From the NCBI GenBank assembly GCA_964016885.1, contig OZ024743.1, positions 232,314,001 through 232,378,000 on the forward strand: a stretch of 64,000 bases of DNA. Reading direction: 5' to 3'. The notes beneath the pieces were generated by a model, which saw only the letters and a list, made by a program, of their open reading frames with translations, did no database searches and was not told the origin of the DNA. This document shows, piece by piece, positions 6,204-64,000 of the stretch (within the stretch, counting starts at the first letter, position 1; each line of letters starts with the position of its first letter). A program made the position numbers and the translations under genes. Source of the DNA: Eledone cirrhosa. Taxonomy: Eukaryota.

Positions 6204-6456
6204 CATAGATACATACATACATACATACATACACACACACACATATCATAAACACAGTAGTGATCATTGTGATGATAATAGAAATGATGATACTGATTAT
6301 TATCAACATGAGATATCTGGTATTCTACAAAGACCAGGAGCTACAATCAAATTCCTCTTAACTATTCTATATCTTTTAGAGTGGAATGTATGCATGCTTG
6401 TCTATCTGTGCGTATTTGGCTTTTACTTTCGTTCTTACATTATATTGAGTGCGAAT

Positions 6457-6642
6457 GGCGGTGGATTGGCAGTATCGGTAGAGGGTCGGACGCCATGCTT
6501 TGAGGCATAGAGTTACGGCCCTTTCTATTCTGAGTCCAAATGCTGCCGAGGTTAACTTTGCCGTTCATCTTTACGGGGTCCGTAAAATAAAGTACCAGTA
6601 ATACAGTGAGTAATTGCTGGCCTTGAGCCAAAAGTAGAAACA
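6457..6642 (+). mobile_element. SINE family 1, full length with 18-bp TSD
   Basis: TSD attatattgagtgc(g/a)aat at 6439-6456 and 6643-6660; A/B boxes; 3' end agtagaaaca. Confidence 0.85.
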
Positions 6643-6834
6643 ATTATATTGAGTGCAAATCACATCTACATATACCCACCCATATATATTATATATATAT
6701 AGTCTTTTAAAGACCTAGGTCATGGTGGGGCACCGCCACGCACACACATATATATATATATATTTTTTTTTGGGGGGGGGGTCGATCGACTTTCGTTAAA
6801 TCAGACCGAGGAAACAATGTTTCCGTTGGTCTTT

Positions 6835-6994
6835 CCAGTTGCTAGTACTATCTATCGGTCGCAACTTCAGGTAGAAGGAGCAACGTGAAATAAAGTGTCT
6901 TGCTCAAGGACATAACGTATCGCCCGGTCCTGGAATCGAACTCACAACCTCAAGATTGTGAATCCAATTCTCTAACCACTCAGCCACACGCCTT
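6835..6994 (-). mobile_element. SINE family 2, 5' part
   Basis: Similar to 3030-3184; tRNA-like head. Confidence 0.65.
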
Positions 6995-6996
6995 TA

Positions 6997-7489
<493 letters not shown>

Positions 7490-7617
7490 AAAGTTCTATT
7501 TAAAATTGTTGGGATACAACAAGTAAATATTTTATAACTGATATAAAGCACTCGACAAGTTTTGGGAGTAGATATACGATATTAAATAAATGGAAACTAT
7601 ATTTATAAAACTATATT

Positions 7618-7816: not shown

Positions 7817-9519
7817 CCTAGGAAACCCAAGATCAATATGAAAGATCACAAAAGAAACTTTGAAAATGATTTGCCAGTCACATTGATTGCACCATCAAAA
7901 TCTGACGTGGGAAAACTTAGCAAAACATTCTAGACAGGGTAATACAACAAATTAAAAACTTAAATAATTTACCTTACTTAAAGTTATGGAAGGGGACTGG
8001 TGAGGTTATTGAGTGGTTTAAAGAAATTAAATATAACTATAATAATAAGTTTATTCTGCTTGATATTGCTAACTACTATTCATCTATCACTCCTAATCTA
8101 CTGAATAAGGCACTAAATTACGCATTTAAACATACCGACCTAACTAGCAATGAAATGCACATTATATTATCGGCAAGCAAAACATTGATAGATTTTAATA
8201 ACCAACTATGGACTAGGGCAGATAGAGATAATAATTTCGACATAACTATGGGATCATCAGACTCAGCTCAGGTAACGGACCTTGTGGGCCTATTTATAAT
8301 TAATTCGCTACATAGAAAAATACCAGGTGTAACCGGAGGATTATATCGTGATGACATGCTTTTACTTATTGAAAATAATAGCTGTGAACTAAATAGAAAA
8401 AGAAAACAAATTATACAATTTTTTAATTACCTTCATCTAAAAATAGAAATAGAGAATAACCATAGAATAGTCAATTTTCTGGATGTAACACTAAATCTCA
8501 ACACATGTCTTCACTATCCATTTCACAAACTAAATGAGAACTTGAATTATGTCAATTATAACTCTAATCACCCCAGATCTGTTAAAAATACTATAGTGAA
8601 CTCTGTTCAAGAACGAATTTCAAGAATTTCATCTAATAAAAATATTTTTGATGAAAAGGCGCAGTATTACAATGAAGCGTTAGCTAGAGCAGGATATAGA
8701 GATAAAATTAAATACATCGATAATAATAAGCAAACTAACCAAAATAATAACAATTTTAATTACGGTAACAACTTTAACAACTATAATAGAAAACATTACA
8801 ATAATTCCAAAAGCCGAAAAAGAAATAGAACTAGAAATATATTATGGTTTGCCCCCCCCCCCCCCCTCCTCACTAAATATTAAAACCCATATTGCTAAAC
8901 TATTCTTTAATGCTCTTGACAAACGCTTCCCTAGAACACATAAATATCCTTCAATTTTTAATAGACACACTATAAAATTAACTTACTCGTCCATCAAAAA
9001 TTTAGCACAAAATATTAACAGAATTAATAATAGGAATTTAAAACCTAACCAAAATACCAATAATAACCCAAACAATATTCAATTAAATAACTGTAACTGT
9101 AGAAATAAATCTAACTGTCCGTTAAATAACAACTGCTTAGCTAAAAATGTAGTGTACAATTGTAATGTTAAAACTAATTTAAATTCTTTCAACTATGTTG
9201 GTTCCACCTCGACAGAATTTAAACTTCGCTTCAATAATCATAAGAATTATTTCCAGATCCAAACAAAATATCCTCAACTTCGCTATTTAGCCTACTCTGG
9301 CACCTTAAACGAGATAATGTTAAATATTCGATGATTTGGAATATTGTCTCAAAAGGTATTCCTTTTAATTCCTCATCAGAGAGTTGTGATCTTTGTATAG
9401 AAGAAATATTCTTTATATTAAAGTCCAAAAATTCCCTTAATTTAAGGAGCAATTTATTCAGTTGCTGCAGACATAGATTGAACTCAACGTTTAAATATAA
9501 ATATAAATTTAAAATGTAG
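7817..9519 (+). pseudogene. PLE reverse transcriptase / GIY-YIG endonuclease, frameshifted
   Basis: MKDHK..LIAPSKSDVGKLSK; FDITMGSSDSAQVTDLVG; GLYRDD; VNFLDVTLNL; SNHP; CNCRNKSNCPLNNNCL..NVVY..YVGST; CDLCIEE; three frames. Confidence 0.88.
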
Positions 9520-23161: not shown

Positions 23162-24955
23162 AGAGAACATGAAATAAGGTAAGATAATTATGTAGTGATA
23201 ACATTAATTTATATATATATATGAATGGGTTAGGGTGTATGTGTGTGCGTGTGTATTAGTTATAGCGATACTTTGCAATGCGTTAAAGCGTAAAACATTT
23301 CCATAGAAAATATTAATGTTGGTACAAATTGGTTTTAATTTCACGTTTGTTGGAGCGGTTTGTTACAGTATTGCTTTTATATACATATTTTATTCCCGGC
23401 AGGTCATGATATGTCGACTGTCGTTTGAAATTCTTCAGTCGTTTTATCTTATACTGTTTGTGTCGTTGATGTAGGTATGATCCTATAGAGTACAGAATCT
23501 ACATTCCGTATATATAGAATTGAATAAATGCCTTACTAAATTAATAACATCTCATCGATACATACAGGGCATACATACATATATACATGGTGGCTGCCAA
23601 CTCGTTTTCGAGTACGGCCATTACTTTATATCCATGTAGGAGAAACCCAACCGATGGGCTGAACGAGTCTGACTTTTTAGTCCAGCCAGCGACTTGAAAA
23701 CTCTGGTACAAACACTACACTTGTGACAATTATTGACATATAGTGTTGGGCCCATCGTACCATGTGACGACAAGTGCAGAGAGATCTCCAGATATAAAGC
23801 AATGCCTGTGCCGTGAAGATTTTATAGTGAGCAAAGGCACTTCACAAAGCCAGTCCCACTCTCTTAACCAAGATGATATTTACCAAAAAGAAGAACAAGT
23901 CAACATCATTGGATACCATCAGGGTTGCAGGTGTTATATCAGAGTTTTCCTTCTCCTAGAATTCTACCTTGACAAAGGTTAAGGGGTCATCTCTCCCGGT
24001 GATTTTGGATGGCCATTGACTCTTAAGTGCTTTGCCCTTTGAGAGGTGCAACCAATACTACATAGGTAGCACAATCCGACCTTTGCACATCCGGATCAAG
24101 GAACACACTAAAACCAGAGCCTCGTCTTTCCGGACACACATAGACAAATGCGGAAACAAAGACGGAAGGCCCATTGTCACAATTCTAGCGACTGAAAGAA
24201 ACGTCGGCACGTTACGTATCAAGGAAGCGCTTTTTATAAAACGCCTGCAACCGCAAATAAACAACCGATCAGAGAGAAGCGAAATGAGATGGCTGGTTTA
24301 AGCTAACAAACGATGCAGCAACACACGCACACACACACACAAACGAGACAACTACACACACACACGCACACACACACAGTAGCATTCCACCATACGAACA
24401 TACTACACTGCCAATACAGAGGAACAAGGCTACAACACACGCACACACACACACACTCAAGCGAGACAACAACACACACATACACACACACAGTAACATT
24501 TAACAAACAGGCAGAGAATGGACTGACAGCTAGCGCCACCCCACTCCCTCATTCGGCCGCTGACCTCTGCCCGACCGACCCCATTTCATGCGCACGCGCG
24601 CTCTGCCGAATACCTCAGATATTCAAAACAACAAACAGCGGAGGACGCGTTTCGCACTTGTCCGACAGATAACCTTTCCCCCACCCCGGAAAAAAAACCC
24701 AGTTGATGGATGTGAATGCGAAATATATAGGGACTATTAAATCTCTCCCAAGGTAACCCTCTCTGGTGTTGTTATTTTATTTTATCCTTTATACTCTTTC
24801 CTTCATTCTTCCACACATCTCATACACACCACGCATCTCAACGTACACCCACTTACATCTCTCTCTCCACCACCGGATCTTATTACCCGGAGATTTACCT
24901 ATTTGCATTGTCGAGGCTTCCAAACGACTTAAAGATATTTACCTATTATTCCACA

Positions 24956-27556
24956 ATGCTTCAAGCAAACTTCAATACTCTCTTATCCTTACACCTGTGC
25001 CAAGAATTGTTTGCATCCGTAAGGGAACTGTTTAGACTGTCGGAGAAATGGGCCAACGCTGGCTGTCAAATTATTTTCCTTAAACGCTGCCTAAAAAACG
25101 ATGTAATCCCCAACACCATCAAGAACATCCGCTTACCAGTAAGCCTACGTACACCAGCTTTCCAAAACACCACTAACCGCATACATCGCACGTGTATTAA
25201 ACAGATCCTGAGACATCTCAACCGCCAATTACACGTCCATAAGCGGACACTCTCAGAGCGGACACATCGACTGCCAATAGCACCCTTAAAAATCACTAAA
25301 GCAATCGACCAGTGCTACCACTCCAGAGTTCAATACCAGAAAAAACGGCTCAAGCGAAAATATGAGTGGATCTTGTCGAAACGCCACAACGAGAACATCG
25401 ACACTAACGAACAGACGGACCAGAACCACGTGGGAAACAACAACTTAACAACCGCCACCCCCGCATCCACCAACACCGAGCCATATCTCAACGATGCGAC
25501 GCACCTGGTCACCGACCTAACTGGCACTCTCACGAGCGACGAGCTGAAACTCCTACACCTCGGACCCAAGTTCATCGTCTCACAACGTCTCGACGACAGA
25601 CTCAAACTCAACATCGAGGCCAACTTTTGTCGAGCCGCTTACCAACTTAAATGGGTGACCGCCATCAACAGCGCCACAGAAAATAACAGCCCCCCCCCCC
25701 CCCCAAGTTCCCCACTTACCACCCCGACAACCCCCCCACCCACCCACCAACCACGAACTCGACACTTAACTTATCAGGCTAAAACACTCCATCTCGGATA
25801 TACTTCACAAACACACACACACAAGCGCAACACATAACCTCACCAAATCTCAACTCACCACTCTCTCCAACTTAAAATCGAAGAACCTCATCTATCTCGC
25901 CTCCGACAAGGGAAAAGAATTCTGCGTCATCAGCAGAGAGGCCTACAACACCCTGGCCCTCCAACACCTTGACGATGACAACCTCTACTCCAAGGTCACT
26001 GGAATCACTCCCGCGCAGATAGAAGAGCACATCAACGCCGCCTGGACCAACATCTGTGACCGGCGGAAGCTCCCGAAGAAGTTGAGATACAACCTCCTCA
26101 CGAGGAACAGACTACCCGTCTTCTACCACCTCGTGAAAACACACAAACAGGGACCCGACCTGAAGATCAGGCTCATCGTATCGAGCGTGGAGGGACCACT
26201 CTACAAAATTGCATGGCTCCTAGCCAGAATACTCAAACCCATCTTAGACACCTTGCCGGGACACGTTAACAGCTCCGAGGAGGTGTTGAAGCGCCTGCAT
26301 CAAATGGATCCCGACACCAGAAGGAATAACAGATATGCCTTCAGCCTTGATGTAGTCGCTCTCTACACCTCGGTCCCGGCACTCCCGGCCGTCAATATAC
26401 TGATGGAACGCGTCCAATCCACCGACCTACACGTGCTTCGGGCTCACCACCACTGACATCCACCAACTCCTATCCATCGTCGTCGACAACACCTACTTCG
26501 GATTCCTTGACCAAACATACCAACAAACCTCGGGATTGCCCATGGGATCAAGCCTATCAGGTGTGCTAGCGATCTCTTACATGGACAATCTCGAACGCAA
26601 GGCACTCAATGCCTGCCACCCCAACGCCGTAGCCTTTTTCTCAAGGTACGTGGACGATATCCTCATCCTCACATCTTCCCAAGACACGGCGAACAGAATC
26701 TATGAGACGTTCAACAACACGGACGAGAACATTGACTTCAGTGTTGAACACCCCAACGAAGACGGGTCACTTGCCCTCCTCGCCTTCCGAATCAACATCA
26801 CGGAACAGGGAAGGATCCACTGCAACTTCTACCGAAAGGCAGCCTGCAGGGACCTGTTCGTTCACTACAAGTCCGCCCTCCCTAACAGTGAAAAAGAGGA
26901 TACATCACGAACGAGATCGCGCGAATCAAATACAGATGCAGCGATCCCGCGAGTGGTGTCACTCATACCAAGCGATTCCTCGAGGTGCTGGAGACGAACG
27001 GGTACCCTACCTCGATCACAGACAGAATAGGAGCACCAGACGCAAGAGACAGAGAGGCACCCAAGGCAAGTGCTTCCTTAAAATGCCACACCTGGGCGAG
27101 AATACCACGAACGCTATCCGCAAGGCTATATGGAGGGAGGGCCTCGACATCCACCTGGCCCACTCGGGCGCCTCCCTGCGAAGATGACTCTCCAGTAAAC
27201 CAGGGAAATCTACTGACGCATGCTCCTTCAGAGACTGCCCGATACGCCATGCGAACTGTTGCCTACGCACATACGTCGTGTATATGATAGAATGTGACAG
27301 GTGCAACCAATACTACATAGGTAGCACAATCCGACCTTTGCACATCCGGATCAAGGAACACACTAAAACCAGGGCCTCGTCTTTCCGGAAACACATAGAC
27401 AAATGCGGAAACAAAGACGGAAGGCCCATTGTCACAATTCTAGCGACTGAAAGAAACGTCGGCACGTTACGTATCAAGGAAGCGCTTTTTATAAAACGCC
27501 TGCAACCGCAAATAAACAACCGATCAGAGAGAAGCGAAATGAGATGGCTGGTTTAA
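24956..27556 (+). pseudogene. PLE polyprotein (N-terminal domain, RT, Cys linker, GIY-YIG) with a few frameshifts and one in-frame TGA
   Basis: FLKRC..VIPN; LGPKF; SDKGK; FYHLVKTHK; SLDVVALYTSVP; GLPMGS; RYVDD; CSFRDCP..CC..VVYMIECDRCNQYYIGSTIRPLHIRIKEH; EALFI..PQIN. Confidence 0.9.
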
Positions 27557-27951
27557 GCTAACAAACGATGCAGCAACACACGCACACGCACACACACACA
27601 CGAGACAACCACACACACACACGCACACACACACAGTAGCATTCCACCATACGAACATACTACACTGCCAATACAGAGGAACAAGGTAACAACACACGCA
27701 CACACACACACTCAAGCGAGACAACAACACACGCACACACACACACACAGTAACATTTAACAAACAGGCAGAGAGTAGACTGACAGCTAGCGCCACCCCA
27801 CTCCCTCATTCGGCCGCTGACCTCTGCCCGACCGACCCCATTTCACGCGCAGCGCGCTCTGCCGAATACCTCAGATATTCAAAACAACAAACAGCGGATG
27901 ACACGTTTCGCACTTGTCCGACAGACAACCTTTCCCCCACCCCGAAAAAAC

Positions 27952-27987
27952 CCCCAGTTGATGGATGTGAATCCGAAATATATAGGG
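27952..27987 (+). ncRNA. HHR-like motif with CAGUUGA core in the pLTR (second copy at 24698-24732)
   Basis: ccc-CAGTTGA-t-ggat gtga atcc-GAAA-tata-TA-ggg. Confidence 0.5.
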
Positions 27988-28190
27988 ACTATTAAATCTC
28001 TCCCAAGGTAACCCTCTCTGGTGTTGTTATTTTATTTTATCCTTTATACTCTTTCCTTCATTCTTCCACACATCTCATATATAACCACGCATCTCAACGT
28101 ACACCCACTTACATCTCTCTCTCCACCACCGGATCTTGTTACCCGGAGATTTACCCATTTGCATTGTCGAGGCTTCCAAACGACTTAAAG

Positions 28191-28228
<38 letters not shown>

Positions 28229-28996: not shown

Positions 28997-29061
28997 AGAA
29001 TTTATAATGAACGAAGCCAAATTTAACATATTTGACTTACTTATATATAATATATATATAT

Positions 29062-29062
<1 letters not shown>

Positions 29063-29150
<88 letters not shown>

Positions 29151-29155
29151 CAGAC

Positions 29156-29220
<65 letters not shown>
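29063..29220. repeat. (GATA)n microsatellite with no LINE insertion
   Basis: Direct inspection. Confidence 0.95.
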
Positions 29221-41559: not shown

Positions 41560-42258
41560 AGTTCCCGTCCTTAGGTGTCTGCAGGCGCCGAATAAATCGG
41601 CCCTTCAGTTTAATAGCTTGGTTCCACCATGAAGTATCTCGAGTGTCTCACTAAGACAGAGGTTGCAAATACCAGACCCGCCTCTGTCTGGGGGAACCTT
41701 TCTAACCACGGACTAGACCAGAGTACGGGGTATTTTCAAGTTTGAGCTTCCAGATCAATTCAGAAAGGGCCGTACATTTCCTCTTTTCTATTCTGTTAAA
41801 GGAATGGCGATGGTTATACCACCTATCTTTGAAGCTCGTGGCCGTGGATCCTATGCAGTGGTGCTCCGCGTTAGGGTTTGTGACCTTGCACCTGTAGACT
41901 ACGTTTTTCGTCATGCATTCATTACTAAGGGGGCATAGTGATGGGTCTCTGCAATTGCATGAATTCTTAAGTCCTAGCACATGTACCGATTGGTTACCAT
42001 CACTCGGGGTTAGCTGGGTAGCCGCCGCAATCAGCACATGGTCGTTGGGTTCCGGTGTGCTAGTTGGGCCTGTCCGGGGTCTGGTGCGTCCCGCGTGCTG
42101 GTTCCGTTGAGTGGGTCCGGGATTTACGGTGGTATTAGAGGCAGTGAGCCTATTCCTATTTATGCCGGCTATGTGCTAGGCTACGGAGCGTGTGGCTGAG
42201 TAGAAAAGCATCACCGTGTGCCTGTTGAATATTTTATGGTACTTGTTGGCCCTAGGGA

Positions 42259-43381: not shown

Positions 43382-43717
43382 GAATCGACAATCCGATCCA
43401 CACTCCTAAAAATATATCAGATAACTAGCAAAACATATCAGATAACTAGTATACGCATCTGGTGGAAAGAGAAAACATGCAGGCTATACAGTCCATGGTG
43501 GTGTGAATGGACCAAAAGATCGCTAAAAATAACAGCTGAGAACCATCCTACTTATGAAGTTCTACTTGTATATATAAATGTATAAAGAGCCAATATATAC
43601 CCTGGTGTATTTTTCTATATATAACATAATTTTCTCTGAATAACATATAAACAAAGAATTGTGTAGATAGATAGATTGCTAAATAGATAGATACATGCAT
43701 AGATAGATAGATATATA

Positions 43718-45500
43718 TTTTTTTTTATTAGCTACAGGGGCACAAAGAAGGGTACAAATACAAAGGGGGAAGTTTACAAACAATAAAAACGTGTAAAATA
43801 CTATCACAAATGCAATTTAAAAATTAATCGATTTTCCCCAATAGAAGGAGACATTACATATGGGTAACACATACCCCGAACAAATACGCAACCATCATCT
43901 CTAGGAGTACGAAGAGTGAGTACCCCTTTTCTCTCTTCTTCTTTTTCCTCAACCTACAGGTTGATATAGAGAGAAGGCCCATTAAATCGGGCCATTATGG
44001 CCACTTTCACCCACCTTTCATAAAACTTGCTGGGGTACAGCACCTCTCTCTCCATCCAGATTCTTCTTCCAAAGTGGTATTTGAAAAAAAGAATCAGTTG
44101 TTGGCCGGAGAGAAAGGTGTCTGACCTCAGCCCTTTTAACCTCGTCCACCATAAAACCTCTTTCGCCATAGCTATCACACAAAGGAAAACCACCTCTCCT
44201 TCGTTTTTGAAGGAGGATGGCGGTTTGATCATGACAATGGACTCGGTGGTCAACCGGATTAGTCCCACCTGCGACAATAATCGTTCTACATAGCCCTACA
44301 GGTCGGTAACGCCCGGGCAGTGTACGAATGCGTGCGTGACGGTTTCTTCGTCTCGCACGCATCTCGGACAGATATTTTTCGAAGGGTCTCTGCCCGGGCG
44401 CCCATATCTGTAGAGCTTGTCTCGAACTGGTAGAGCTCCTCGGTAGCACTGACAGGCCAGGGACTTTTGGAAGTTGTCCATCGGTCCCGGGCAGAAGGTC
44501 CTACTGAACAGACTGGCCAGTTCGTCTTCCTCTACGCCTAGAGTTTCTCCGAGCGCGTCCTCGCACTTGCTGCGGACCAACCCTCTATAGAATGACGAAG
44601 TGGAGTCTCCGCTGATCGCCGGGTCCGCCTGCCAGAGGGCTGTGAGCGCCTGAGCACATTCGATGTGCCAGTCGCCCATTTTCCTCGGTCTTTGCTTGAC
44701 CCAGGACTGCAGCTCGGTCAGCGGGACGAGTCGTGGGAAGGCTCGCCTCACGAACGGGGCCCACACCGGTTGTCCCGTGAGGAATACGTGGAGATGCCGC
44801 AGCTTGAGCGCGTGTTTGCGCATCGTTAGCTACGGTATCCCCAGCCCTCCGTTGGAAGGGTGTTGGCAGCAGATGGATAATCTCACCAAAGGAGCCCGCT
44901 TCTTCCAAAGAAATTGGAAGAGCGCCCGCTCCATTTTGGTGAGCGTTTTGGCTAGACAAGGCAAGACGGTCAAGCGGTAGTAGATGGCAGACGTTATAAA
45001 GTTGTTCGCCACCTTCGTTCGACATTTCAAGAATAGTTTGCACTCGGCCCACTTCTGGGTGAGTGCAAACACCTTGGCCGTCACCTCGTTCCAGTTCTTC
45101 TCCATCTAGAGGTCCGGACCAAACCAGACCCCGAGCAGCTTCACTGATCCTTCCGTGCAGCGTCCGACGACGCCATCGGAAGAAATCGGTTTGCCTCTCC
45201 ACGATCCGAGTTGCAAACCGATGGACTTTTCCCGGTTCAGCTTCGCTCCTGTGAACCTTTCGTATTCCTTCAGTAGGGTACCGACTTCTTCGATTTGCGA
45301 GGTGCTCGACACCATTACTCTCACGTCATCGGCGTAGGCCGACGCCGCTTTCCGCAGTCACGGTTCCAGAGAGATGCCCTGCAATATCTCCAACTTTTGC
45401 AGTAGTGGCTCGAGAGTCAGTGCGTACAGAAGGGAGGAAAGAGGGCATACCTGTCGGATGGATCGCGTGATATGGAACGGCTCCGAGAGGTAGCCGTTCA
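43718..45500 (-). mobile_element. L1/Tx1-type LINE copy A, 5'-truncated and degenerate
   Basis: RT C-terminal half and zf-RVT (CPRC..EETVTHAFVHC); AATAAA plus A-tail; GATA-rich tracts on both sides. Confidence 0.88.
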
Positions 45501-45511
45501 TAGATAGATAA

Positions 45512-45543
<32 letters not shown>

Positions 45544-47070
45544 ATTTGTTTATTAGCCACAAGGGCACAAAAGAAGGGGACAAATACAAATGGGGAGTTT
45601 ACATACAGGTATATGAAAATAAAACTATTAATAAAATAACAAATAACAATTGATATCCCCAATAGGGGGAGGCGTTACACAGGGGTTGTACACACCACGA
45701 AAAAATGTACAACCCTCATCTCCAGGAGCACCAAGAGTGAGTACTCCCTTCCTCTCTTCCTCTTTTTCCTCAACTTACAGGCTTATATAGAGAGAAGGCC
45801 CAATCACTCGGGCCATCTTTGCCACATCCACCCACCTTTTATAAAATTTGCTGGGGTACAGCACCTCTCTCTCTATCCTGATTCTTCTTCCAAAATGATA
45901 TTTGAAAAAAACGAATCAGTTGCTCGCCGGAGAGAAAGGTGTCTGACCTCAGCCCTTTTAACCTCGTCCACCATATAACCTCTTTAACCATAGCCATAAC
46001 ACATATGAAAACCCCCTCTCCCTCGCTTTTGAAGGAGGGTGGCGGTTTAATCATGACAATGGACTCGGTGGTCAACTGGATTGGTCCCACCCGCAACAAT
46101 AGTCGTTCTACATAGCCCCACAGGTCAGTAACGCCCGGGCAGTGTACAAATGCGTGCGCGACGGTTTCCTCGTTGCGCACGCATCTCGGACAGATGTTTT
46201 TCGAAGGGTCCCTACCCGGGCGCCCGTGTCTGTAGAGCTTGTCTCGAACAGGTAGAGCTCCTCGGTAGCACTGCCAGGCCAGGGACTTTTGGAAGTTGTC
46301 CATTGGTCCCGGGCGGAAGGTCCTACCGAACAGGCTGGCCAGTTCGTCCTCGTCGACGCCTAGAGTTTCTCCGAGCTTGTCGTCGCACTTGCTGCGGACC
46401 AACCCTCTATAGAATGTCGAAGTGGAGTCTCCACTTATCGCCGGCTCCGTTTGCCAGAGGACTGTGTGCGCCTGAGCACAATCGATGTGCCATTCGCCCA
46501 TTTTCCTCGGTCTTTGCTTGACCCAGGACTGCAGCTCGGTCAGCGAGACGAGTCATGGCAAGGCTCGCCTCACGAACGGGGCCCACACCGGTTGTCTGGT
46601 GAGGAATACGTGGAGGTTCCACAACCTGAGCGCGTGTTTGCGCATCGTCAGCCACGGTATCCTCAGCCCTCCGTTTGAAGGGTGTTGGCGCAGATGGATC
46701 TTCTCACCAAAGGAGCCCGTTTCTTCCAAAGGATTGGAAGAGAGCGCGCTCCATTTTGGTGAGCGTTTTGGCTGGACAAGGCACGACGGTGGTGAAGCGG
46801 TAGTAGATGACGGACGCTATAAAAGTGTTCGCCATCTCCGCTCGACCTTTCAAGGATAGTTTGCACTCGGCCCACTTCTGGGTGAGCGCAAACACTTTTG
46901 CCGTCACCTCGTTCCAGTTCTTCTCCACCTGGAGGTCCGGACCAAACCAGACCCCGAGCAGCTTTACCGGTCCTTCCGTCCAGCGTCCGACGACGCCATC
47001 GGAAGGCATCGGTTTGCCTCTCCACGTTCCGAGTTGCAAACCCACGGATTTGTCCCGGTTCAGCTTCGCT

Positions 47071-48744
47071 GAACAAACCAAAACAACACAACCAGCGGCA
47101 CCAGCAACAAAAATAACAACAATGCTATGAACGAAAACACAACTTCACAAATGAATTCCGCAACGACAGATCAAGCAATTGAGAACTACAAAAACAACAA
47201 CAACAACGACAACAATGACAACAACAACAATAGCAACAATGATGACAACAACAACAACAGCAGCAAAAATAATGACAACAACTCCACAAACAAGGAAAAA
47301 AATGTTTGCACAAACTGTCCAAAAGACAGAACTATATACACAGATTGACATCTCTAATGCCGGAGAATCGCTAAGAGATGCCAAGCAATATAACTTCTCC
47401 CCAAGAATTGCGTAGAGGCACTGTCTTGAAAACCATAGTTTTTAGGACAATCTCAAATACCACCAGAAAACCAGCTCAATTAACTCAAAACGAAAATGAG
47501 CTGATTCTAAGAAACTCCATGAAGGACATTACCTTCATACAGAAGGGAAAACTCTTCGGGAGTTTATCAATAATAATGAAAGACCAATTGACGGCACAGA
47601 AATATTCTGTGTCCCCCATCTACACCTTTTCCCCCACATATATGGGAAAGGGACCCAAAAAATAAAAGTAACAAATATCACACCAAATGTAAACATCTGG
47701 TGGATATTAGCTGGTTTCATCAATGTTGATGAAGATACAGTAATTTCGGTAGGAAAGTCCTCCAGGGGCATATTCAACGGTACAAGCTTAGAAGTTCTGG
47801 TCCAAATGAGACCAGAACGGATAGCTAGAATACCACGACGAGTGCCTCTGGATGGAAATTCCTACATAAACATTTTTGTTGAGGGTAGGCGGCCTTCATG
47901 TTACCACTATTTAAGCAGTGGTCACCTGAGGGCTTCCTGTCCACAATTAACTGCATTAAAAAAAGGCACTTCTGCCGACATCCAACACAACAACACAACC
48001 ACCACAACAACAACACACAAAAACAAATAAAACTTCAAACACAGTCCCACCCAACAGCTCTCCACCTAAAACAACTCCAGAAACACCCACACACATAACA
48101 GCTCCCCAAAATGTACCCCTTCCCAACAACACGGATGAGGCCTCATCATCGTCACCCAGTGACGATGAGGGAGAGCTTTTCCGACCAGTAAAAAGAAAAA
48201 AGAAAAGACATACAACAAACAAAATGCAACAAACACACATACACCAATACAACCGACGCAAACAGCACAAACAAAAACACCCCCTCCTGAAAACAAAACA
48301 CCTACTACAAAACGTAAACACACACAAGAACCACAGAAAAAAACCAACACAACACAACAAAAATGTTACACCTACATAAATACTAACAATAAAACTTTAA
48401 CAGACACAATATATAAAAATCCTTCGGTGGAGACCGAAGGGAAAACTTTTACACACTCTTCGGAGAATCCTAATCTTAAAATGATTAGGATCTCCATGGA
48501 CACACATAAATAGTTAAAAGAAAAATTTCCTAACGACGTAGGTAACCCCTGCGTCAAACCCTATAACCGCGTCCTTTTGAAACGTTTCCCCTCCCCAACC
48601 CCAGACACCCTCACCCCACCTGACACCCCCTCCCCAACAAACATCTCCGTCCACACCCCGCCAGAGACCACCACCCCACCAAACAACCCCTCCAACACCA
48701 CCATGGAAATTGTGCAGCCTGGTCCCCAGGAGATGAAGAGTTGA
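47071..48744 (+). pseudogene. LINE ORF1 (gag-like) remnant with zinc knuckle
   Basis: IFVEGRRPSCYHYLSSGHLRASCP (CX2[C>Y]X4HX4C); directly upstream of the ORF2 ATG. Confidence 0.7.
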
Positions 48745-48784
48745 GTGATTTTTTTCCCTCTTCTTTTAACTTTTCAGCACCAAC

Positions 48785-49772
48785 ATGGCCAATATAAGAG
48801 TTGGATGTGTGAATGTACGCGGCCTGGGGATGCTCTGGAAACAGGGCAAACTCTTAAACGACCTCAGGTCGCACAGTATGGATGTAGTAGCCATTTGCCA
48901 GTCCAGAATCCACAGCAACCGACAACTGGCCCCCATCTTCAACCACTTTGAGATCTACGCATCTCTCTGTCAGCCGGTAGGTGGGGGTGGGGTTGTCGTT
49001 TTGCTGCGGAAACACCTGGACCTCGTAACAGACGTTACATCTGGACCCGGAGGGTCGACTGGTGGTCCTAGACGTTGACGGTAGTGAAGGTGGCGCCTTC
49101 AGGCTGGTGGCCGCATATGCCCCATCCGGGACACCGCGGCCAGACTTCTTCAAACGTCTAGAGACTATTCTGGGAACCTCCCGCTCCCTGCTGTTAGTGG
49201 GGGACTGGAATGGAATCCTAGATGCACGTTGGGAAAATGTGGGAGCATGTCCCGATAGAGGGGTGTGTGACAACCTCAGAGACTTAAACGGCCGATTTGG
49301 CCTAGCCGAAAGATGTCGACTAGATTTTCCGATTTTGCCACTGTGGAGGTGGACTAATCGCAGCGGAACATCTAGATCGTACCTAGATAGGGTTCTAGTT
49401 AGAAAGAAGGATAGGGACATGTTAAGCTGTCCACAAATGTTCATGGTTGCCTATTCAGATCACAAATTAGTGACCTGCTTAGTCAACCTTGACAAAACCC
49501 ATAGACGAGGACCCGGCTACTGGAAGCTGAACTTGTCGTTACCGACATGCAAAGCCTGCAGTAGGCGGATTAGCACTTTAGTTAAGCAGCACTTGACGCG
49601 GCCAATTGTCAACAACAGATGGTGGTACTCTCTCAAGAGTGCAGTTAGATTAGACTCGATAGATTTTAGTAAAGAATTCGTGTTAGATAGAAATAAGACC
49701 GAAAAGGAACTGGTAGATAAAGTAGAAGAGGCACTTAGGAGTGGCAACGTAGCCGGCGGGCTAGCGACGTGA
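48785..49772 (+). pseudogene. LINE ORF2 N-terminal APE endonuclease, frameshifted
   Basis: NVRGL; AAYAP; VGDWN; SYLDRV; SDH; GPGYWKLN. Confidence 0.88.
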
Positions 49773-50196
49773 TAGTAATGGTGTCGAGCACCTCGCAAAT
49801 CGGGGAGACGGCACCTTACTGGAGGAATACGTCAGGTTGTCGGTCAGCAGGTGGAGAAAATCCTTTCTCTGGCTGACATTTGTCTTTGACATCTGCTACA
49901 ATGACAGTGGCAGGGGGAAGCTGTAAGCATATCTTCCCCTTTCCTCTTTCGAAAGTTGGTGAAGAAGCTTCAGGCATTTTTTTTTAAATGTTAGCTTTTC
50001 AAAAAAAACTTTTTGTGAACTATTTCGCCTAAAGGCGTAGAATATTTTGAGAGACTGACCAGATCAAAATTTGACCTGGCAGTCCCTCTACAAATTGGTA
50101 TAAAAATAAAGGTTTACAGTTAGGAATTTCTATAGAAATTTAGGCAGAACTTACCCAGCAAGTTTCACGCGTGTGTCCATCCCAGATAGATAGATA

Positions 50197-51240
50197 AGTT
50201 TCTTTTATTTGCCACTAGGGCATCAAAAGTGGGACAAGTACAAAGGGGGGAGTTTACACAAAAAGGCGTCCTCAATAAGGAGGAGGCAATAACAAAATAT
50301 AAAAATAAAATAAGATATAACAAAAAATAAAATTTTTAACAAAATCCTCAATAGAGAGGAGGCGCCTTGGGGGGTCGCACACACCCCCGAAAAAAGTGTG
50401 CAACCCTTTTCCTCAGGAGCACAGAGAGGGGGTGCTCCCTCGTTCCTTCCTCTTTTCCACCTACAGGCTTATGTAAAGAGAAGGCCCATTCACACGGGCC
50501 ATTCTCGCCACTTTCACCCACCTTTCATAAAAACGACTGGGGTGCAGCACCTCTCTCTCCATCCTGATCCTTCTTCCGAAATGATATCGGAAGAAACGGA
50601 CCAGTTGTTGGCCAGAGAGAAAGGTGCCTGACCTCAGTCCTTTCAGACGCGTCCACCATACAACCTCTTTCGCCATGGCTATTACGCACAGAAACACCGC
50701 CTCTGCTTCATCTTTGAAGGGGGTAGGCGGCTTGATCATTACAATAGACTCGGTGGTCAACCGGATCGGTCCCACCCTTGACAGCAGTTGTTCGACATAG
50801 CCCCACAGATCGGCTACGCCCGAGCAGTGTACCAATGCGTGTGCAACGGTTTCCTCGTCGCACACGCATCTGGGACAGATCTTTTTGGCGGGGTCCCTAC
50901 CCGGGCGCCCGTGTCTGTAGAGCCTTTCTCGAACGGGTAAAGCCCCTCGGTAGCACTGCCAGGCCAGGGACTTCTGGAAGTTGTCCATAGGTCCCGGGCT
51001 GAATGTCCTACCGAACAGGCTGGCCAGTTCGTCCTCCTCCATGTCTAGGGCTTCTCCGAGGGCGTCGTCGCACCTGCTGCGTACCAGCCCTCTATAGAAT
51101 GTTGCGGTGGAGTCTCCACTGATAACCGGATCCGCCTGCCAGAGGGCGGTGAGCGCCTGGGCACACTCAGTGTGCCAGGCGCCCAGTTTTCTCGGTCTTT
51201 GCTTGACCCAGGATTGCAGCTCGGTGAGTGAGACGAGTCC
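50197..51240 (-). mobile_element. L1/Tx1-type LINE copy C, 5'-truncated
   Basis: ORF2 C-terminus open (50461-51240); GATA repeats on both sides. Confidence 0.88.
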
Positions 51241-51308
<68 letters not shown>

Positions 51309-51319
51309 GGATAGGCAGC

Positions 51320-51371
<52 letters not shown>

Positions 51372-51372
<1 letters not shown>

Positions 51373-53416
51373 TTCTTTATTTACCATAAAGGCATAAAAA
51401 GAAGGGACAAATACAAAGGGGGAGTTTACATATAATCGAGTAAAAAGGGTGTAACATGAAAATAATCGAAAATAACCTCAAAAGGGAGGGGACGTGATGG
51501 GGGTTGCACACACCCCCGAAAAAGTGTGCAATCCTTTGCCCGGGGAGCACATGGAGAAGGTGCTCCCCTCTCCTTTACTTCTTTACCTACAGGATGGTAT
51601 ACAGAGAAGGCCCATTTACACGAGCCATTCTCGCCACTATCACCCACCTTTCATAAAACTGCCTGTGGCCAAGCACCTCTCTCTCCATTCTTATCCTTCT
51701 TCCGAAGTGATATCGGAAGAAGTAGACCAGACTATGGCCAGAGAGGAAGTTGCCTGACCTCAGACCTTTCAATCGTGTCCACCAAACAACCTCTTTCAAC
51801 ATGGCTATTACGCACAGAAAAACCGCCTTTGCTTCCTTTGTGAAGAGGGGAGGCGGTTTGATTGTCATCACGGACTCGGCGGTCAATTTAATCGGCGCCA
51901 CCCGCGACAGCAGTTGTTCGGCGTAGCCCCACAGATCAGCCACGCCCGGACATTGCACCAATGCGTGCGCCACGGTTTCTTCGTGACGCACGCATCTAGG
52001 GCAAATCTTTTTTGAGGGATCCCTGCCCGGGCGCCCGTGTCTGTAGAGCCTCTCTCGAACGGGTAGAGCCCCTCGGTAGCACTGCCAGGCCAGTGACTTC
52101 TGGAAGTTGTCCATTGGTCCTGGGCCGAAAGTCCTACCGAACAGGCTGGCCAGTTCGTCTTCTTCCATGTCCAGCGACTCTCCAAGGGTGTCATCGCCCC
52201 TGCTAGCCACCAGCCCTCTATAGAATGATGAGGTGGATTCTCCACCGATGGCCCGGCCCGCTTGCCAGAGAGCCCTGAGCGCCTGAGCACACTCAGTGTG
52301 CCAGTCTCCCAGTTTTCCGGATCTTTGTTTGACCCAGGACTGTAGCTCGGTGAGTGAGACGAGTCTCGGAAAGGCTCGTTTCACGAACGGGGCCCACACC
52401 GGTTGACCAGTGAGGAATACCTGTAGGTGCCGTAGCCTTAATGCGTGCCTACGCATCATCAACCACGGCATCCCCAGCCCTCCTTTCGAAGGTTGTTGGC
52501 AGCAGATGGATCTTCTCACCATAGGAGGACGCTTCTTCCAAAGAAATTGGAAGAGCATGCGTTCCATGGTGGTGAGTGTTTCCTTAGGGCAAGGCACGAC
52601 AGTCAGGCGGTAGTAAGTGACGGACGCTATGTAAATGTTCGCCACCTCCGCCCGGCCTTTTAGGGACAGCTTACACTTGGCCCATTTCTGGGTTAGTGCA
52701 AACACCTTGTTCGTAACCTCGTTCCAGTTCTTTTCCACCTGGAGGTCCGGTCCAAACCAGACCCCAAGCAACTTTACCGGGCCCTCCGTCCAGTGTCCGA
52801 CGACACCGTCAGGAGGCATCGGTTTGCCTCTCCACGTTCCGAGTTGCAGCCCGATGGATTTTTCCCGGTTCAGTTTCGCTCCTGACAACCTTTCGTACTC
52901 CTCCAGTAAGGTACCGATCGCCTCGATCTCCGAGTCGGTTGATACCATTACTGTTACGTCATCGGCGTAGGCCGACACCGCTTTGCTCAATCCTGGTTCC
53001 AGGGGGATACCCTGCAACAACTCCAACTTCCTCAGTAAAGGCTCGAGAGTCAATACGTACAGAAGGGAGGAGAGAGGGCACCCCTGTCGAATGGATCGTG
53101 TGATTTCGAACGGCTTCGAAAGGTAGCCGTTCACCTTGATCCTAGAACAGATGTGGTTGCTATGTAGGGCAGTGATCCAGCCTCTGAAAACAGGACCGAA
53201 CCCAGCCGCCGCTAGCACCGCATCCAGGTAACCATGGTCGACCCTATCGAAGGCCTTAGACTGATCCAAGTTGATCAGGGCCCCACCGAAGCCGGGTTTG
53301 TTGCCAACCCTCTCTATGATGTATCGCATGAGGTGGAGGTTATCGTGAATGGACCTGGATGGGATAGCACATGTCTGCGCATCTCCCACCAGGCCACCCA
53401 CGACAAGCGCCAACCA
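51372..53416 (-). mobile_element. L1/Tx1-type LINE copy D, 5'-truncated
   Basis: (GATA)n at 51241-51371 and 53418-53448; 3' UTR similar to copies A-C. Confidence 0.92.
51587..53413 (-). CDS. Uninterrupted 608-aa partial ORF2: reverse transcriptase plus C-terminal zf-RVT
   Basis: RSIHDN; LDQSKAFDRVDH; IRQGCPLS; YADDV; KLLGV; LSLKGR; GGLG; CPRC..ETVAHALVQC. Confidence 0.9.
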   Translation of the reverse strand: MALVVGGLVGDAQTCAIPSRSIHDNLHLMRYIIERVGNKPGFGGALINLDQSKAFDRVDHGYLDAVLAAAGFGPVFRGWITALHSNHICSRIKVNGYLSKPFEITRSIRQGCPLSSLLYVLTLEPLLRKLELLQGIPLEPGLSKAVSAYADDVTVMVSTDSEIEAIGTLLEEYERLSGAKLNREKSIGLQLGTWRGKPMPPDGVVGHWTEGPVKLLGVWFGPDLQVEKNWNEVTNKVFALTQKWAKCKLSLKGRAEVANIYIASVTYYRLTVVPCPKETLTTMERMLFQFLWKKRPPMVRRSICCQQPSKGGLGMPWLMMRRHALRLRHLQVFLTGQPVWAPFVKRAFPRLVSLTELQSWVKQRSGKLGDWHTECAQALRALWQAGRAIGGESTSSFYRGLVASRGDDTLGESLDMEEDELASLFGRTFGPGPMDNFQKSLAWQCYRGALPVRERLYRHGRPGRDPSKKICPRCVRHEETVAHALVQCPGVADLWGYAEQLLSRVAPIKLTAESVMTIKPPPLFTKEAKAVFLCVIAMLKEVVWWTRLKGLRSGNFLSGHSLVYFFRYHFGRRIRMEREVLGHRQFYERWVIVARMARVNGPSLYTIL

Positions 53417-53448
<32 letters not shown>

Positions 53449-61074: not shown

Positions 61075-64000
61075 AAAATGAATGCAATAGACATTTCAAT
61101 AAGAAATTAGGATGGATGAAGAAGAAAAAAACAAGAAGAAAGGAAAATGGAAAATTTACAAAAATACCCAGATAACATCAACAATATCCCTATGACAGAT
61201 GTAGCATTACCGGCAGAATTTACCAAAGACCATACAATCAATATTTATGAGAACACTTTAATCAATTAACAAGAACAACAGGCTCTACAGCTCCCACCGA
61301 AATTTGCTATCTACAAAAAGATAAATCCAATCGAGTGTAAAACGGAGCTGGAAAAGTGTTTCACAAAAATACGTTTAAATGAGAAAATAAACAACAACTA
61401 TACGGTCAACAACAATAATAACGATAGAAGTAATATAAACAATAACTCTGAGTATAGAAATAACAGCTATAATAGTAAAAGTCATAACAATAACAATAAT
61501 ATGAGAGTGAGACATAGTAATAATAATAATGGTAATAATATTAACGATAGACAGAACAACAACCACAATAATAATAATAATGGAAACATTAACGACAGAC
61601 ACAACAACAACAACAACAACAACAACAACCACAGTAGTAATAATGGAAATAATACGAGTAACAACATTAATGACAGACACAACAACAACAACAGTAGTAA
61701 TAATGGAAATAATACGAGTAACAACATTAATGACAGACACAACAACAACAACGACAACAGTAGTAATAATGGAAATAATACGAGTAGCAACATTAATGAC
61801 AGACACAACAATAACAACAACAACAACAGTAGTAATAATGGAAATAATACGAGTAGCAATATTAATGATAGACACAAAAACAACAACAACAAAAACAAGA
61901 AACATAATAATAAAAGTAACAACCACAATGGGATAAATAAGAGTAACAACAAAAATAACAATAGAGAAAACAACAGCAATATATCTAACAATCATAACAA
62001 TAATAATAATGTTAATGGTAGGAACAACGACAACCATAATAACAATAATAGCACACACACAACTATGACGATAGATATAATGACAACCTCTTAGAGAAAC
62101 TATTCTTCAACCCAGCTGACAAATCATATCAGATGAGTAAAATTTATCCTACGAGGTTACCCTTTAATAAAAGGGTTTGTATACCACAACAAATAGATGA
62201 CGAGACAGAGGCACAGTTCACCATGGCTAGAAATAAGATTAAACAAATAGTAGACCGATATACTAAGAGACAAAGCAGGCCAGAGGTCCAACAACTTGGA
62301 AGGAAACCTGTAGAAGGCTTAGTTAGCCTCAAGCAGCGCACAAGGGATGGTGAGGTAGTATGTCTACCCTCAGATAAGTCTGGTAGCATGTCAATAGACA
62401 GCATGCCGAACTACATCAAGGCTATGCAACACCGCATCACCAAACACGAGCGAAATTACACAACAAACACACGAGGAGAGAGAGAAGATCCTCAACGCGC
62501 ACATGATGATGTAGACCGACATCCTAAAGCAAGCAGTCGCACTGCCAACAATTTCCAGGCGTCTAACAATGACATACCACCCTTCTATGGGCTCCGCAAA
62601 GACCATAAGACAGTCGACGACCCGAAAACAGAACCACCAACAAGACCTGTATGCGGAGTCAATATCGCTATCAACTACCGGATCTCCTACTTCCTCTCAA
62701 TGGTTATACGCCCCATAATGAAGATGTCCCCAGATGTATGTGACAGTACAGAGGACCTCCTCAGCAGAAACAGTGAGTGCAACAAAAACAAAGACCTATC
62801 CAACTGCATAATAGGCAGTATGGACGTGGTATCCCTATATTCCTCCATTAACATTGATTTTGCGGTGGAAAAATGTGTGGAGATGATCAGTGAGAGTGAG
62901 GTGGTGTTCTGCGACATTGACACAGATGATTAATCTGGGCCTCCTACTTAGACTTATCTATGAGACCAACAACCTAGACAGCCATGGCCTTAGCCGTTTC
63001 TGCCCCAGTAGACCCATAAGAGGTAGACCCTCCACCCCCCACCATAACCTCAATGGCAAAAATGACTCCCGTGGGAAGGTGGTTGGGTGGACCAAAGCCA
63101 TACGGACCCCCCAAAACAATGATCAGGTAAGAAAAATGTTCACGCATACAATAGGGGCTAGTATTAAAACTACGCTAAAGAGCCACATATTCAAAAGATC
63201 TACACCCAAAATGAGGGAGCAGCAATTGGCATCAGCATAGTTGGTGACGTTGCTAAACTTTTTATGGTATGGTGGGAAAGGAGACTCAAAGATCTCCTTG
63301 ATGAGAGGTCCATAGATCTCCTCATGTACTCTCGTTACGTAGACGATATTAATATATTAATAAGGACACCCCCACAAGAGAGTACTAACAAGTATGAGCT
63401 AGAATGTTGCACAATGGAAAGCATCCAGCAGATAGCTAACTCCATACACCAGAGTATAACTGTAACTATCGACTATCCTTCCAAACAACCTAACAGTAGA
63501 CTACCTGTATTAGACACAGAACTCTGGATTAACACTATAGACGAGAGGGCCCAAATTCTCCACTCACACTACACTAAACCCATGGCCTCCAAATACCTGA
63601 TACTCAAAAACTCAGAAATGTACAGTAGTGCTAATTTAATATTCTGATCGCAGACTTGGTACGAGTGATGAAGAACGTGTCCCGCATGTGCGACCCAACA
63701 GAAATGGAAAGACACATCCAATACTTCATCAACCGCATGCAGTACTCTGCCTACAACCAAAGAGGCAGAATCAGAGTATACAAAGGAGCCACGGAGAAGT
63801 ATAAGACCCGCATAGAACTGGACATGAAAGGAATTTGCCCATTATACAGGAACAAATCATGGAATAGCTTAGATAGGGTTAAACATAAGATAGGGAAAGC
63901 CACCTCATGGTACGACAACCAGAGATACCAGAGTGTGATGTTCGTGGAAGCTACCCCTGGAGGGAAATTCGATAACCAGTGTAGAAAGGCCCCGAGAAAG
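61075..64000 (+). pseudogene. Penelope-like element RT (Nematis/Neptune-like), frameshifted, running off the window
   Basis: LPPKFA; PSDKSG; FYGLRKDHK; PPTRPVCG; GSMDVVSLYSSI; GAAIG; YSRYVDD; LPVLD; HYTKPMASK; VMFVEATPGG. Confidence 0.85.
61515..61900 (+). repeat. In-frame Asn-rich minisatellite (units of about 54-66 bp) inside the PLE ORF
   Basis: Repeated NINDRHN(n)SSNNGNNTS. Confidence 0.85.

What the first reader, a model, noticed from the sequence alone, without database searches (positions are those of the whole stretch)
43665..53448. Same-orientation array of four L1/Tx1-type LINEs at (GATA)n: candidate microsatellite-targeting family
Seen in sequence: four related but clearly diverged copies (A 43718-45500, B 45545-49842, C 50197-51240, D 51372-53416) all have their 3' ends on the minus strand and different 5' truncation points. 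All four 3' ends and three of four 5' ends abut GATA repeats, including the outer 5' end of D where no further element follows. No junction uses the far more abundant long (TA)n or (CA)n tracts. Established: some Tx1-clade APE elements are sequence-specific for microsatellites (Kibi for TC, Koshi for TTC). Inference: these are independent, oriented insertions by a (TATC)n-specific endonuclease; I do not know of a described GATA-specific Tx1 family.
Basis: partly seen in the sequence, partly recalled or inferred. Interest (0 to 1): 0.72.

Follow-up and report, generated by a model that had tools for sequence, protein, structure and literature searches.

The report
Octopod LINEs stacking in GATA repeats
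Four copies of a jumping gene, of different ages, lie head to tail in one GATA repeat in what is likely an octopus genome; elsewhere in that genome the family lands mostly in GATA repeats in one orientation while a close sister lands in ATT repeats, likely because each one's DNA-cutting enzyme reads its own repeat, which is likely a new target for an already known strategy.

Summary
The array is real and the targeting holds genome-wide. A, B, C and D are 78-88% alike but 93-99.9% like separate genome-wide subfamilies, so they are not a segmental duplication. One correction: B is full-length (45545-50186) with an internal inversion, so all four 5' ends abut GATA.

Of 80 other copies picked by their 3' ends, 60 have TCTA repeats just upstream, none in the opposite orientation. 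The figure is 21 of 39 for truncated copies with no family neighbour; background is 0.4%. Where a target-site duplication is readable (11 copies, mostly 15-21 nt), it starts at the TAT after the element's last two letters. No poly(A) tail was seen. A sister family (ORF2 67% identical) sits in (ATT)n instead: 19 of 20, none in TCTA.

Nicking by the endonuclease is inferred; pairing of a read-through RNA tail with the target is not excluded. Tx1 membership could not be tested against reference elements. Microsatellite-targeting LINEs are known (Kibi, Koshi, crocodilian Tx1); ten literature searches showed no GATA target. The scan has reported this family before on other DNA.

The parts
43664..43717 (-). 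Degenerate (TCTA)n tract on the 3' side of the array, with the two letters that follow the end of A
43718..45500 (-). Copy A: 5'-truncated ORF2 (RT to C-terminus) and 3' UTR; the most diverged copy (93.1% to the nearest fetched relative, 4 stops)
45501..45544 (-). (TCTA)n spacer between B and A, with the TT that follows the B-type end
45545..47070 (-). Copy B, 3' part in sense orientation (95.0% to the nearest fetched relative)
47072..49841 (+). Copy B, internally inverted block: ORF1, APE endonuclease, a deletion of about 1.07 kb at 49766-49772, then a short RT piece
49843..50186 (-).
50183..50196 (-). 3' copy of the likely 14-nt target-site duplication of C; includes the first bases of B
50199..51239 (-). 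Copy C: 5'-truncated, young (99.9% to relatives)
51240..51371 (-). (TCTA)n spacer between D and C with one interruption; 51240-51253 is the 5' copy of the likely duplication of C
51372..53415 (-). Copy D: 5'-truncated inside RT, frame open, young (99.8% to relatives; 608 of 608 residues identical to an intact ORF2)
53417..53448 (-). Outer (TCTA)8 tract on the 5' side of the array

Best explanation
This is a stack of four separate insertions of an L1-group (Tx1-like) LINE family that lands mostly in (TCTA)n/(GATA)n tracts in one orientation, likely because its APE endonuclease nicks the GATA strand between two GATA units. Shown: a two-ORF APE-RT element of 5.8 kb; fixed orientation and phase; 3' end AATAAA-GAAA plus two subfamily-specific letters, then TA(TC) and no poly(A); duplications mostly 15-21 nt that start at that TAT. 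Inferred: target-primed reverse transcription from the nick; a transcript that runs into the downstream repeat, so that its UAUC units pair with the nicked end and copying starts upstream of any poly(A); a second nick about 15-20 nt downstream. Each insertion leaves target repeats on both sides, so later copies can land in the same tract. Here the likely order is A, B, then C and D.
For: Upstream TCTA (8 nt or more within 30 nt): 32 of 40 D-type, 12 of 20 C-type, 16 of 20 B-type; 0 of 80 in the opposite orientation; 35 of 54 without a family neighbour; 21 of 39 truncated and without one. Background 0.42%. Copies picked by their 5' ends: 30 of 30 and 28 of 29. TA runs upstream: 1 of 80 against 6.1% background. 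After the two variable letters, TA follows in 80 of 80 and TATC in 73 of 80. Duplications of 12 nt or more that depart from the pure repeat: 14 of 80, or 11 of 77 after dropping three tandem copies, against 40 of 6320 mismatched pairs. Perfect runs are alike on both sides (medians 14 and 13.5 nt, p=0.59), as expected for insertion inside a tract. Adjacent family pieces: 50 same orientation, 0 opposite. Sister family: (ATT)n upstream in 19 of 20, TCTA in 0 of 20, and ATT in 0 of 80 GATA-family copies. Sequence-specific APE cleavage as the main determinant is the view stated in PMC4494074, PMC3812793 and PMC8869645 (passages).
Against: No biochemical test of the endonuclease. 20 of 80 copies lack the upstream run; some sit in TA-rich or near-unique DNA with only a short TAT/TATC match (L044, L064, L110, L115, L129), and by eye about 11 show no clear duplication. 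In one host repeat, 19 LINE-free paralogues carry at most about 3 TATC units, while six occupied ones carry about 3-12, so long tracts may partly arise with or after insertion. Full-length copies could carry TCTA at their own 5' end, which weakens the 5'-picked counts. The ATT/TCTA contrast is also what RNA-directed pairing would give.
Confidence: 0.72

Rival explanations
1. The target is chosen mainly by the RNA. The transcript reads through into the repeat at its source locus, and this tail pairs with any nicked or slipped repeat of the same kind; the endonuclease is only weakly specific.
For: No poly(A) after any of 179 distinct 3' ends. The polyadenylation-like signal lies about 6 nt before the repeat. 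Pairing of a read-through 3' end raises R2Ol insertion from 12% to 96-98% (PMC6530143, passages). It predicts the same TCTA/ATT contrast.
Against: Duplications cluster at 15-21 nt and start at a fixed phase, as for enzyme-made staggered nicks. Four subfamilies up to 22% apart keep one target although some copies land in (TA)n (L107, L115), which under this model could seed TA-targeting lines; none was seen among the sampled sets. The APE domain is intact in many copies.
Confidence: 0.18
2. TATC is only a self-encoded tail; the element inserts anywhere, and arrays arise because tails seed repeats.
For: All 80 3' ends continue with TA and 73 with TATC. LINE-free paralogues of one host repeat have only short TATC runs. 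20 of 80 5' ends lack the run.
Against: 5' flanks of truncated copies with no family neighbour carry TCTA in 21 of 39 against 0.42%. Duplicated stretches begin with TATC and continue into locus-specific letters. In L125, L129, L044, L107 and L115 the letters after TA are not TC, so the fixed tail is at most TA.
Confidence: 0.04
3. Passive accumulation or duplication: insertions are random but survive in GATA tracts, or the array is a segmental or tandem duplication.
For: A few arrays elsewhere hold near-identical full-length copies with identical spacers (L046/L047), which may be tandem duplications. Passive accumulation was proposed for Drosophila Waldo (PMC3812793, passage).
Against: The window's copies are 78-88% alike with four different 5' ends and separate subfamilies. 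Copies 99-100% identical to each other already show the bias. Survival would not fix strand and phase or avoid the far more abundant (TA)n (8238 against 156 bp in 200 kb).
Confidence: 0.04

Closest known systems
Kibi ((TC)n) and Koshi ((TTC)n) of teleosts; crocodilian Tx1 families in (TTCC)n/(TTTC)n (PMC4494074 passages and section 15; PMC3812793 passages)
   Same: APE-type non-LTR retrotransposons of the L1/Tx1 group that insert preferentially into a microsatellite; this family far exceeds the 20% flank criterion of PMC4494074 for calling a family target specific.
   Different: Target is TCTA/GATA, not a pure pyrimidine/purine repeat (TC runs upstream in 0 of 80). Host is likely an octopod. 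In a quick RT tree the family groups with unnamed metagenome proteins, apart from the vertebrate proteins including one auto-named TX1; Kibi and Koshi themselves were not available.
Waldo (ACAY), Mino (AC) and Dong (TAA) microsatellite-targeting elements (PMC3812793 passages)
   Same: Insertion into simple repeats; Dong's repeat is the same class as that of the ATT sister family found here.
   Different: Different clades (R1 for Waldo and Mino, R4 with a restriction-like endonuclease for Dong: recalled, not tested here) and, for the main family, a different repeat.
SART1Bm at (TTAGG)n (PMC7265360, abstract only)
   Same: Phase-specific insertion into a short tandem repeat, needing only a few units.
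   Different: Telomeric target, and it needs a long poly(A) tail, whereas no poly(A) is seen at these insertions.
L1-Tx1 repeats annotated in Octopus vulgaris and other coleoids (PMC13282606 first third and passages; PMC8967140 passages)
   Same: Recently active L1-Tx1 families are listed in octopus (13 families, 421 insertions).
   Different: The main text of PMC13282606 has no occurrence of 'target' or 'insertion site', and the passages of PMC8967140 give no targets. Whether this family is among them was not tested.

Membership tests
L1-group APE-type non-LTR retrotransposon | ORF2 with N-terminal APE endonuclease and central RT | tested here: met
   Intact 1145-aa ORF2: PF03372 33.2 bits (cut-off 24.5), PF00078 95.2 bits; best solved relative human L1 ORF2p, E 1.5e-50.
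L1-group APE-type non-LTR retrotransposon | C-terminal zinc-binding motif (zf-RVT) | tested here: met
   PF13966 27.8 bits in window copy D (cut-off 27.5); 26.9 bits, just under, in the full protein.
L1-group APE-type non-LTR retrotransposon | Two ORFs, variable 5' truncation, target-site duplications | tested here: met
   ORF1 626 aa plus ORF2 1145 aa; lengths 358-5842 nt and 11 readable duplications.
Tx1 clade | RT groups with reference Tx1, Keno, Kibi, Koshi in a rooted tree | tested here: inconclusive
   No reference elements or L1 outgroup were available. Quick, midpoint-rooted tree of 41 rows; 41% identity in the RT region to an alligator protein auto-named TX1.
Tx1 clade | ORF1 with CCHC zinc knuckle rather than Transposase_22 (PMC5203782 passages) | tested here: inconclusive
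   One CX2CX4HX4C motif at residues 311-327, Pfam 11.6 bits, under the cut-off of 20.8; no Transposase_22 or RRM hit.
Tx1 clade | Target preference (over 20% of flanks of one type) | tested here: met
   60 of 80 5' flanks and 63 of 80 3' flanks.
Kibi / Koshi lineage | Target (TC)n or (TTC)n | tested here: not met
   TC runs of 12 nt or more: 0 of 80 upstream, 1 of 80 downstream; TTC was not counted separately, and the printed junctions show TCTA.
Sequence-specific APE LINE | Endonuclease nicks the target sequence specifically | not testable with these tools
   Needs a nicking or retrotransposition assay.
Twin-primed (5'-inverted) LINE insertion, considered for copy B | The inverted segment forms the 5' end of the insertion | tested here: not met
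   The 5' UTR lies outside the inverted block in sense orientation.

The most novel reading that the evidence does not exclude
An invertebrate radiation of L1-group LINEs that switch microsatellite targets (TCTA, ATT) mainly through the repeat that their poly(A)-less read-through RNA picks up at the source locus, so the target is remembered by RNA rather than by the enzyme, and that lengthen and multiply the tracts they depend on.
Probability: 0.15. Interest if true: 0.72.

Novelty: new variant of a known kind. Interest (0 to 1): 0.42.

Why it matters
How APE-type LINEs recognise microsatellites is called 'not well understood' in PMC3812793 (2013, passage). This genome holds two young families with intact ORFs and the same 3' signature but non-overlapping targets (TCTA and ATT; ORF2 67% and APE 60% identical), plus four TCTA subfamilies. 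That is a ready natural pair for endonuclease-swap and RNA-tail-swap tests. It also means that GATA tracts in this genome often flank a high-copy LINE, which matters for marker design and repeat annotation. The strategy itself is known.

Tried and rejected
Twin priming for copy B: my first reading, dropped when 49843-50186 proved to be its 5' UTR. Empty allele: contigs of four runs laid on L064 gave no clear joint across the insertion (one weak joint with 21 letters on its short side), so polymorphism is not shown. Expression: no RNA holder listed. Raw reads of organism B: none laid from about 1 in 100 of the run. Metagenome scan for flanks of the nearest outside relatives: the 80 loci kept were only 25-40% identical to the query, and I did not analyse them. 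Tree: the careful search did not finish; 41 of 107 eligible rows were used (every third unnamed row plus named ones), and six named hits, including the Argonauta protein, fell out for short coverage. One-sided expansion of the 5' tract: not supported by run lengths, not excluded by the host-repeat paralogues. Papers not held: PubMed 12949131 (Kojima and Fujiwara 2004) and PMC85248. Supplements of PMC4494074 could not be read, and the target labels of its Fig. 3 are not in the text; either could list a GATA target. Repbase could not be searched.
Full report
Setting. The window is G000:C4:232314001-232378000 in a 3.0-Gb assembly. The closest named relative of the RT region is from Argonauta hians (68% identity); vertebrate hits are 28-41%. 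The host is therefore likely an octopod (inference).

Observation. Four related copies lie on the minus strand between GATA tracts, 77.7-88.4% identical pairwise. A, C and D are 5'-truncated. B is full-length: 49843-50186 has 40 scored genomic matches at 92-100%, which continue into the sequence at window 47072 and are preceded by TCTA in 28 of 29 other copies read. The block 47072-49841 is inverted, with a 14-nt stretch at 49829-49842 matching both the 5' UTR and the RT piece, and a deletion of about 1.07 kb at 49766-49772. So 4 of 4 5' ends and 4 of 4 3' ends abut GATA. A microhomology-mediated rearrangement after or during insertion is my inference.

The element. All 40 scored matches to the last 429 nt of D are 100% identical (963 candidates). 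Full-length copies are 5.8 kb with ORF1 (626 aa, one CCHC-like motif) and ORF2 (1145 aa: APE, RT, zf-RVT). Of 150 scored matches to a 200-aa piece of ORF2, all are identical and, by my count, 125 lie in a 1156-codon open frame. C-type copies also have intact ORF2 in 4 of 6 checked. Recent activity is inferred from this; no RNA or empty allele was seen.

Sampling. I read 40 of 40 D-type hits, every second C-type hit (20 of 40) and every second B-type hit (20 of 40), all picked by element 3' sequence without the repeat. These are best hits, not a random sample; D and C hits come from contigs C1 and C2 only. Seven 5' boundaries were set by hand after inspection (L063, L102, L104, L108, L117, L125, L136), and B-type boundaries rest on alignment to a reference about 80% identical. 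Background was 20 stretches of 10 kb at fixed positions.

Flanks. A TCTA-phase run of 8 nt or more within 30 nt upstream: 32 of 40, 12 of 20 and 16 of 20; opposite orientation 0 of 80; downstream 63 of 80. Without a family 3' end directly upstream: 35 of 54; truncated as well: 21 of 39. Background is 242 of 57000. Copies picked by 5' sequence: 30 of 30 D-type (six overlap the first set) and 28 of 29 B-type (two share flanks). TA runs upstream: 1 of 80, CA and TG 0 of 80, although AT tracts hold 8238 bp against 156 bp of AGAT in the background. Free GATA tracts exist: 5 of 7 in the background adjoin no family piece, nor does the tract at window 29050-29220.

Junction anatomy. The element ends AATAAA-GAAA plus two letters that follow the subfamily: TC in 38 of 40 D, CT in 16 of 20 C, TT in 19 of 20 B, mostly CA in A-type (where 15 of 19 continue with TATC by eye). 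Then come TA in 80 of 80 and TATC in 73 of 80. None of 179 distinct 3' ends found by motif is followed by a run of six A; that set includes a few ATT-type relatives. Duplications of 12 nt or more that depart from the pure repeat were found in 14 of 80; three (L046, L047, L059) are artefacts of tandem copies, leaving 11 of 77 with lengths 12, 15, 16, 18, 18, 18, 20, 21, 21, 21 and 39, against 40 of 6320 mismatched pairs. Counted from the TAT they are mostly 15-20 nt, and the letter before them is C in 14 of 18 sites listed, one of which was mis-called. This places the first nick on the GATA strand between two units (inference). Perfect runs upstream and downstream are alike in 54 copies (medians 14 and 13.5 nt, p=0.59).

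Results against a strict reading. 20 of 80 copies lack the upstream run. Some have a short duplication starting with TAT or TAC in TA-rich or near-unique DNA; by eye about 11 show no clear duplication. In a host repeat hit several times, 19 LINE-free paralogues (six are one duplicated locus) carry at most about 3 TATC units, while occupied ones carry about 3-12. Either long tracts are strongly preferred or tracts grow with insertion; I cannot tell which.

The array. Nearest fetched relatives are 93.1% for A, 95.0% for B, 99.9% for C and 99.8% for D, so the copies differ in age. Both flanks of C read TATCTATCTATCTG; the last letters are not C-type sequence and match the conserved start of B. 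C therefore likely inserted at the 5' edge of B after B. The departure from the repeat is only one or two letters, so this is suggestive. Stacking is common: 41 of 80 copies have a family piece within 400 nt, with 50 such pieces in the same orientation and none opposite. Reads of another sample and a contig under another organism code show the D-type end joined through GATA units to a further family copy (table 5c).

Sister family. One background stretch (L152) holds an intact relative, ORF2 67% identical (764 of 1145), APE 144 of about 240 identical, with the same AATAAA-GAAA end. Of 20 further copies (hits 2-21 of 40), 19 have (ATT)n upstream and 18 downstream, none TCTA; the one miss upstream is an internal deletion that I left uncorrected. 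Background for ATT is 0.26%, and 0 of 80 GATA-family copies have it. 18 of the 20 are full length at the mapped boundary, so the truncated-copy test rests on one case here.

Mechanism. Best reading: endonuclease-directed nick, helped by pairing of a read-through UAUC tail, then target-primed reverse transcription. Structure, phase, orientation, duplications and the lack of poly(A) are shown; the nick, the RNA end and the second nick are inferred. That cleavage for polyadenylation falls 10-30 nt past AAUAAA is recalled. RNA-directed choice is the main rival, and genomic data cannot separate the two.

Comparison and novelty. It works like Kibi, Koshi and the crocodilian TTCC/TTTC Tx1 families (PMC4494074 passages and section 15; PMC3812793 passages). 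It is not filed under Kibi or Koshi (target not met), and Tx1 membership is likely but inconclusive. Ten searches (listings and abstract starts) and passages of PMC13282606, PMC8967140, PMC8869645 and PMC6530143 showed no GATA-targeting LINE; the founding paper, one figure's labels, supplements and Repbase were not seen. The scan's own notes describe this family from eight other stretches; they are not independent support. Verdict: real, a new target variant of a known kind, interest 0.42.

Noticed in passing
L152:2824-8848 (G000:C2:125002824-125008848): Intact sister LINE, 6.0 kb, ORF1 about 697 aa and ORF2 1139 aa, flanked by (ATT)n on both sides; young (20 further copies about 99% identical), often stacked head to tail.
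   Followed up: yes
L045:2500-2672 and L192-L220: A dispersed host repeat that ends in short TATC, TC and TA runs; hit by the GATA family at L041, L045, L047, L065, L085 and L210. Its own nature was not worked out.
   Followed up: partly
L048 and L138, 3' flanks: A D-type and a B-type copy sit at the same TATC run of another repeated sequence (596 nt, 96% alike): separate insertions at paralogous sites.
   Followed up: no
L117 (oriented 6453-7501): Chimeric copy: about 190 nt of B-type 5' UTR joined directly to a C-type 3' end, preceded by (TCTA)n; template switch or deletion.
   Followed up: partly
L046, L047, L091-L093 (G000:C1:348.91-348.93 Mb): At least three near-identical full-length copies with identical spacers; tandem duplication or assembly repeat rather than separate insertions.
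   Followed up: no
L129, L143, L219, L229: Older relatives with the same 3' signature followed by ATT-type repeats.
   Followed up: partly
window 24040-28194: RT-coding element (PF00078 at 26404-27027) between two 900-nt direct repeats (96.7%); Penelope-like by recall. Further RT-like or GIY-YIG-like frames at 7921-9331, 41705-42175 and 61270-63644 had no Pfam hit where tested.
   Followed up: partly
window 29050-29220: A 170-nt GATA tract with no family copy beside it: an unoccupied target 14 kb from the array.
   Followed up: yes
P0006-P0084: A large group of unnamed metagenome-derived ORF2 proteins, about 50% identical in RT, is the sister group of the octopod elements in the quick tree; host and targets unknown.
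   Followed up: partly
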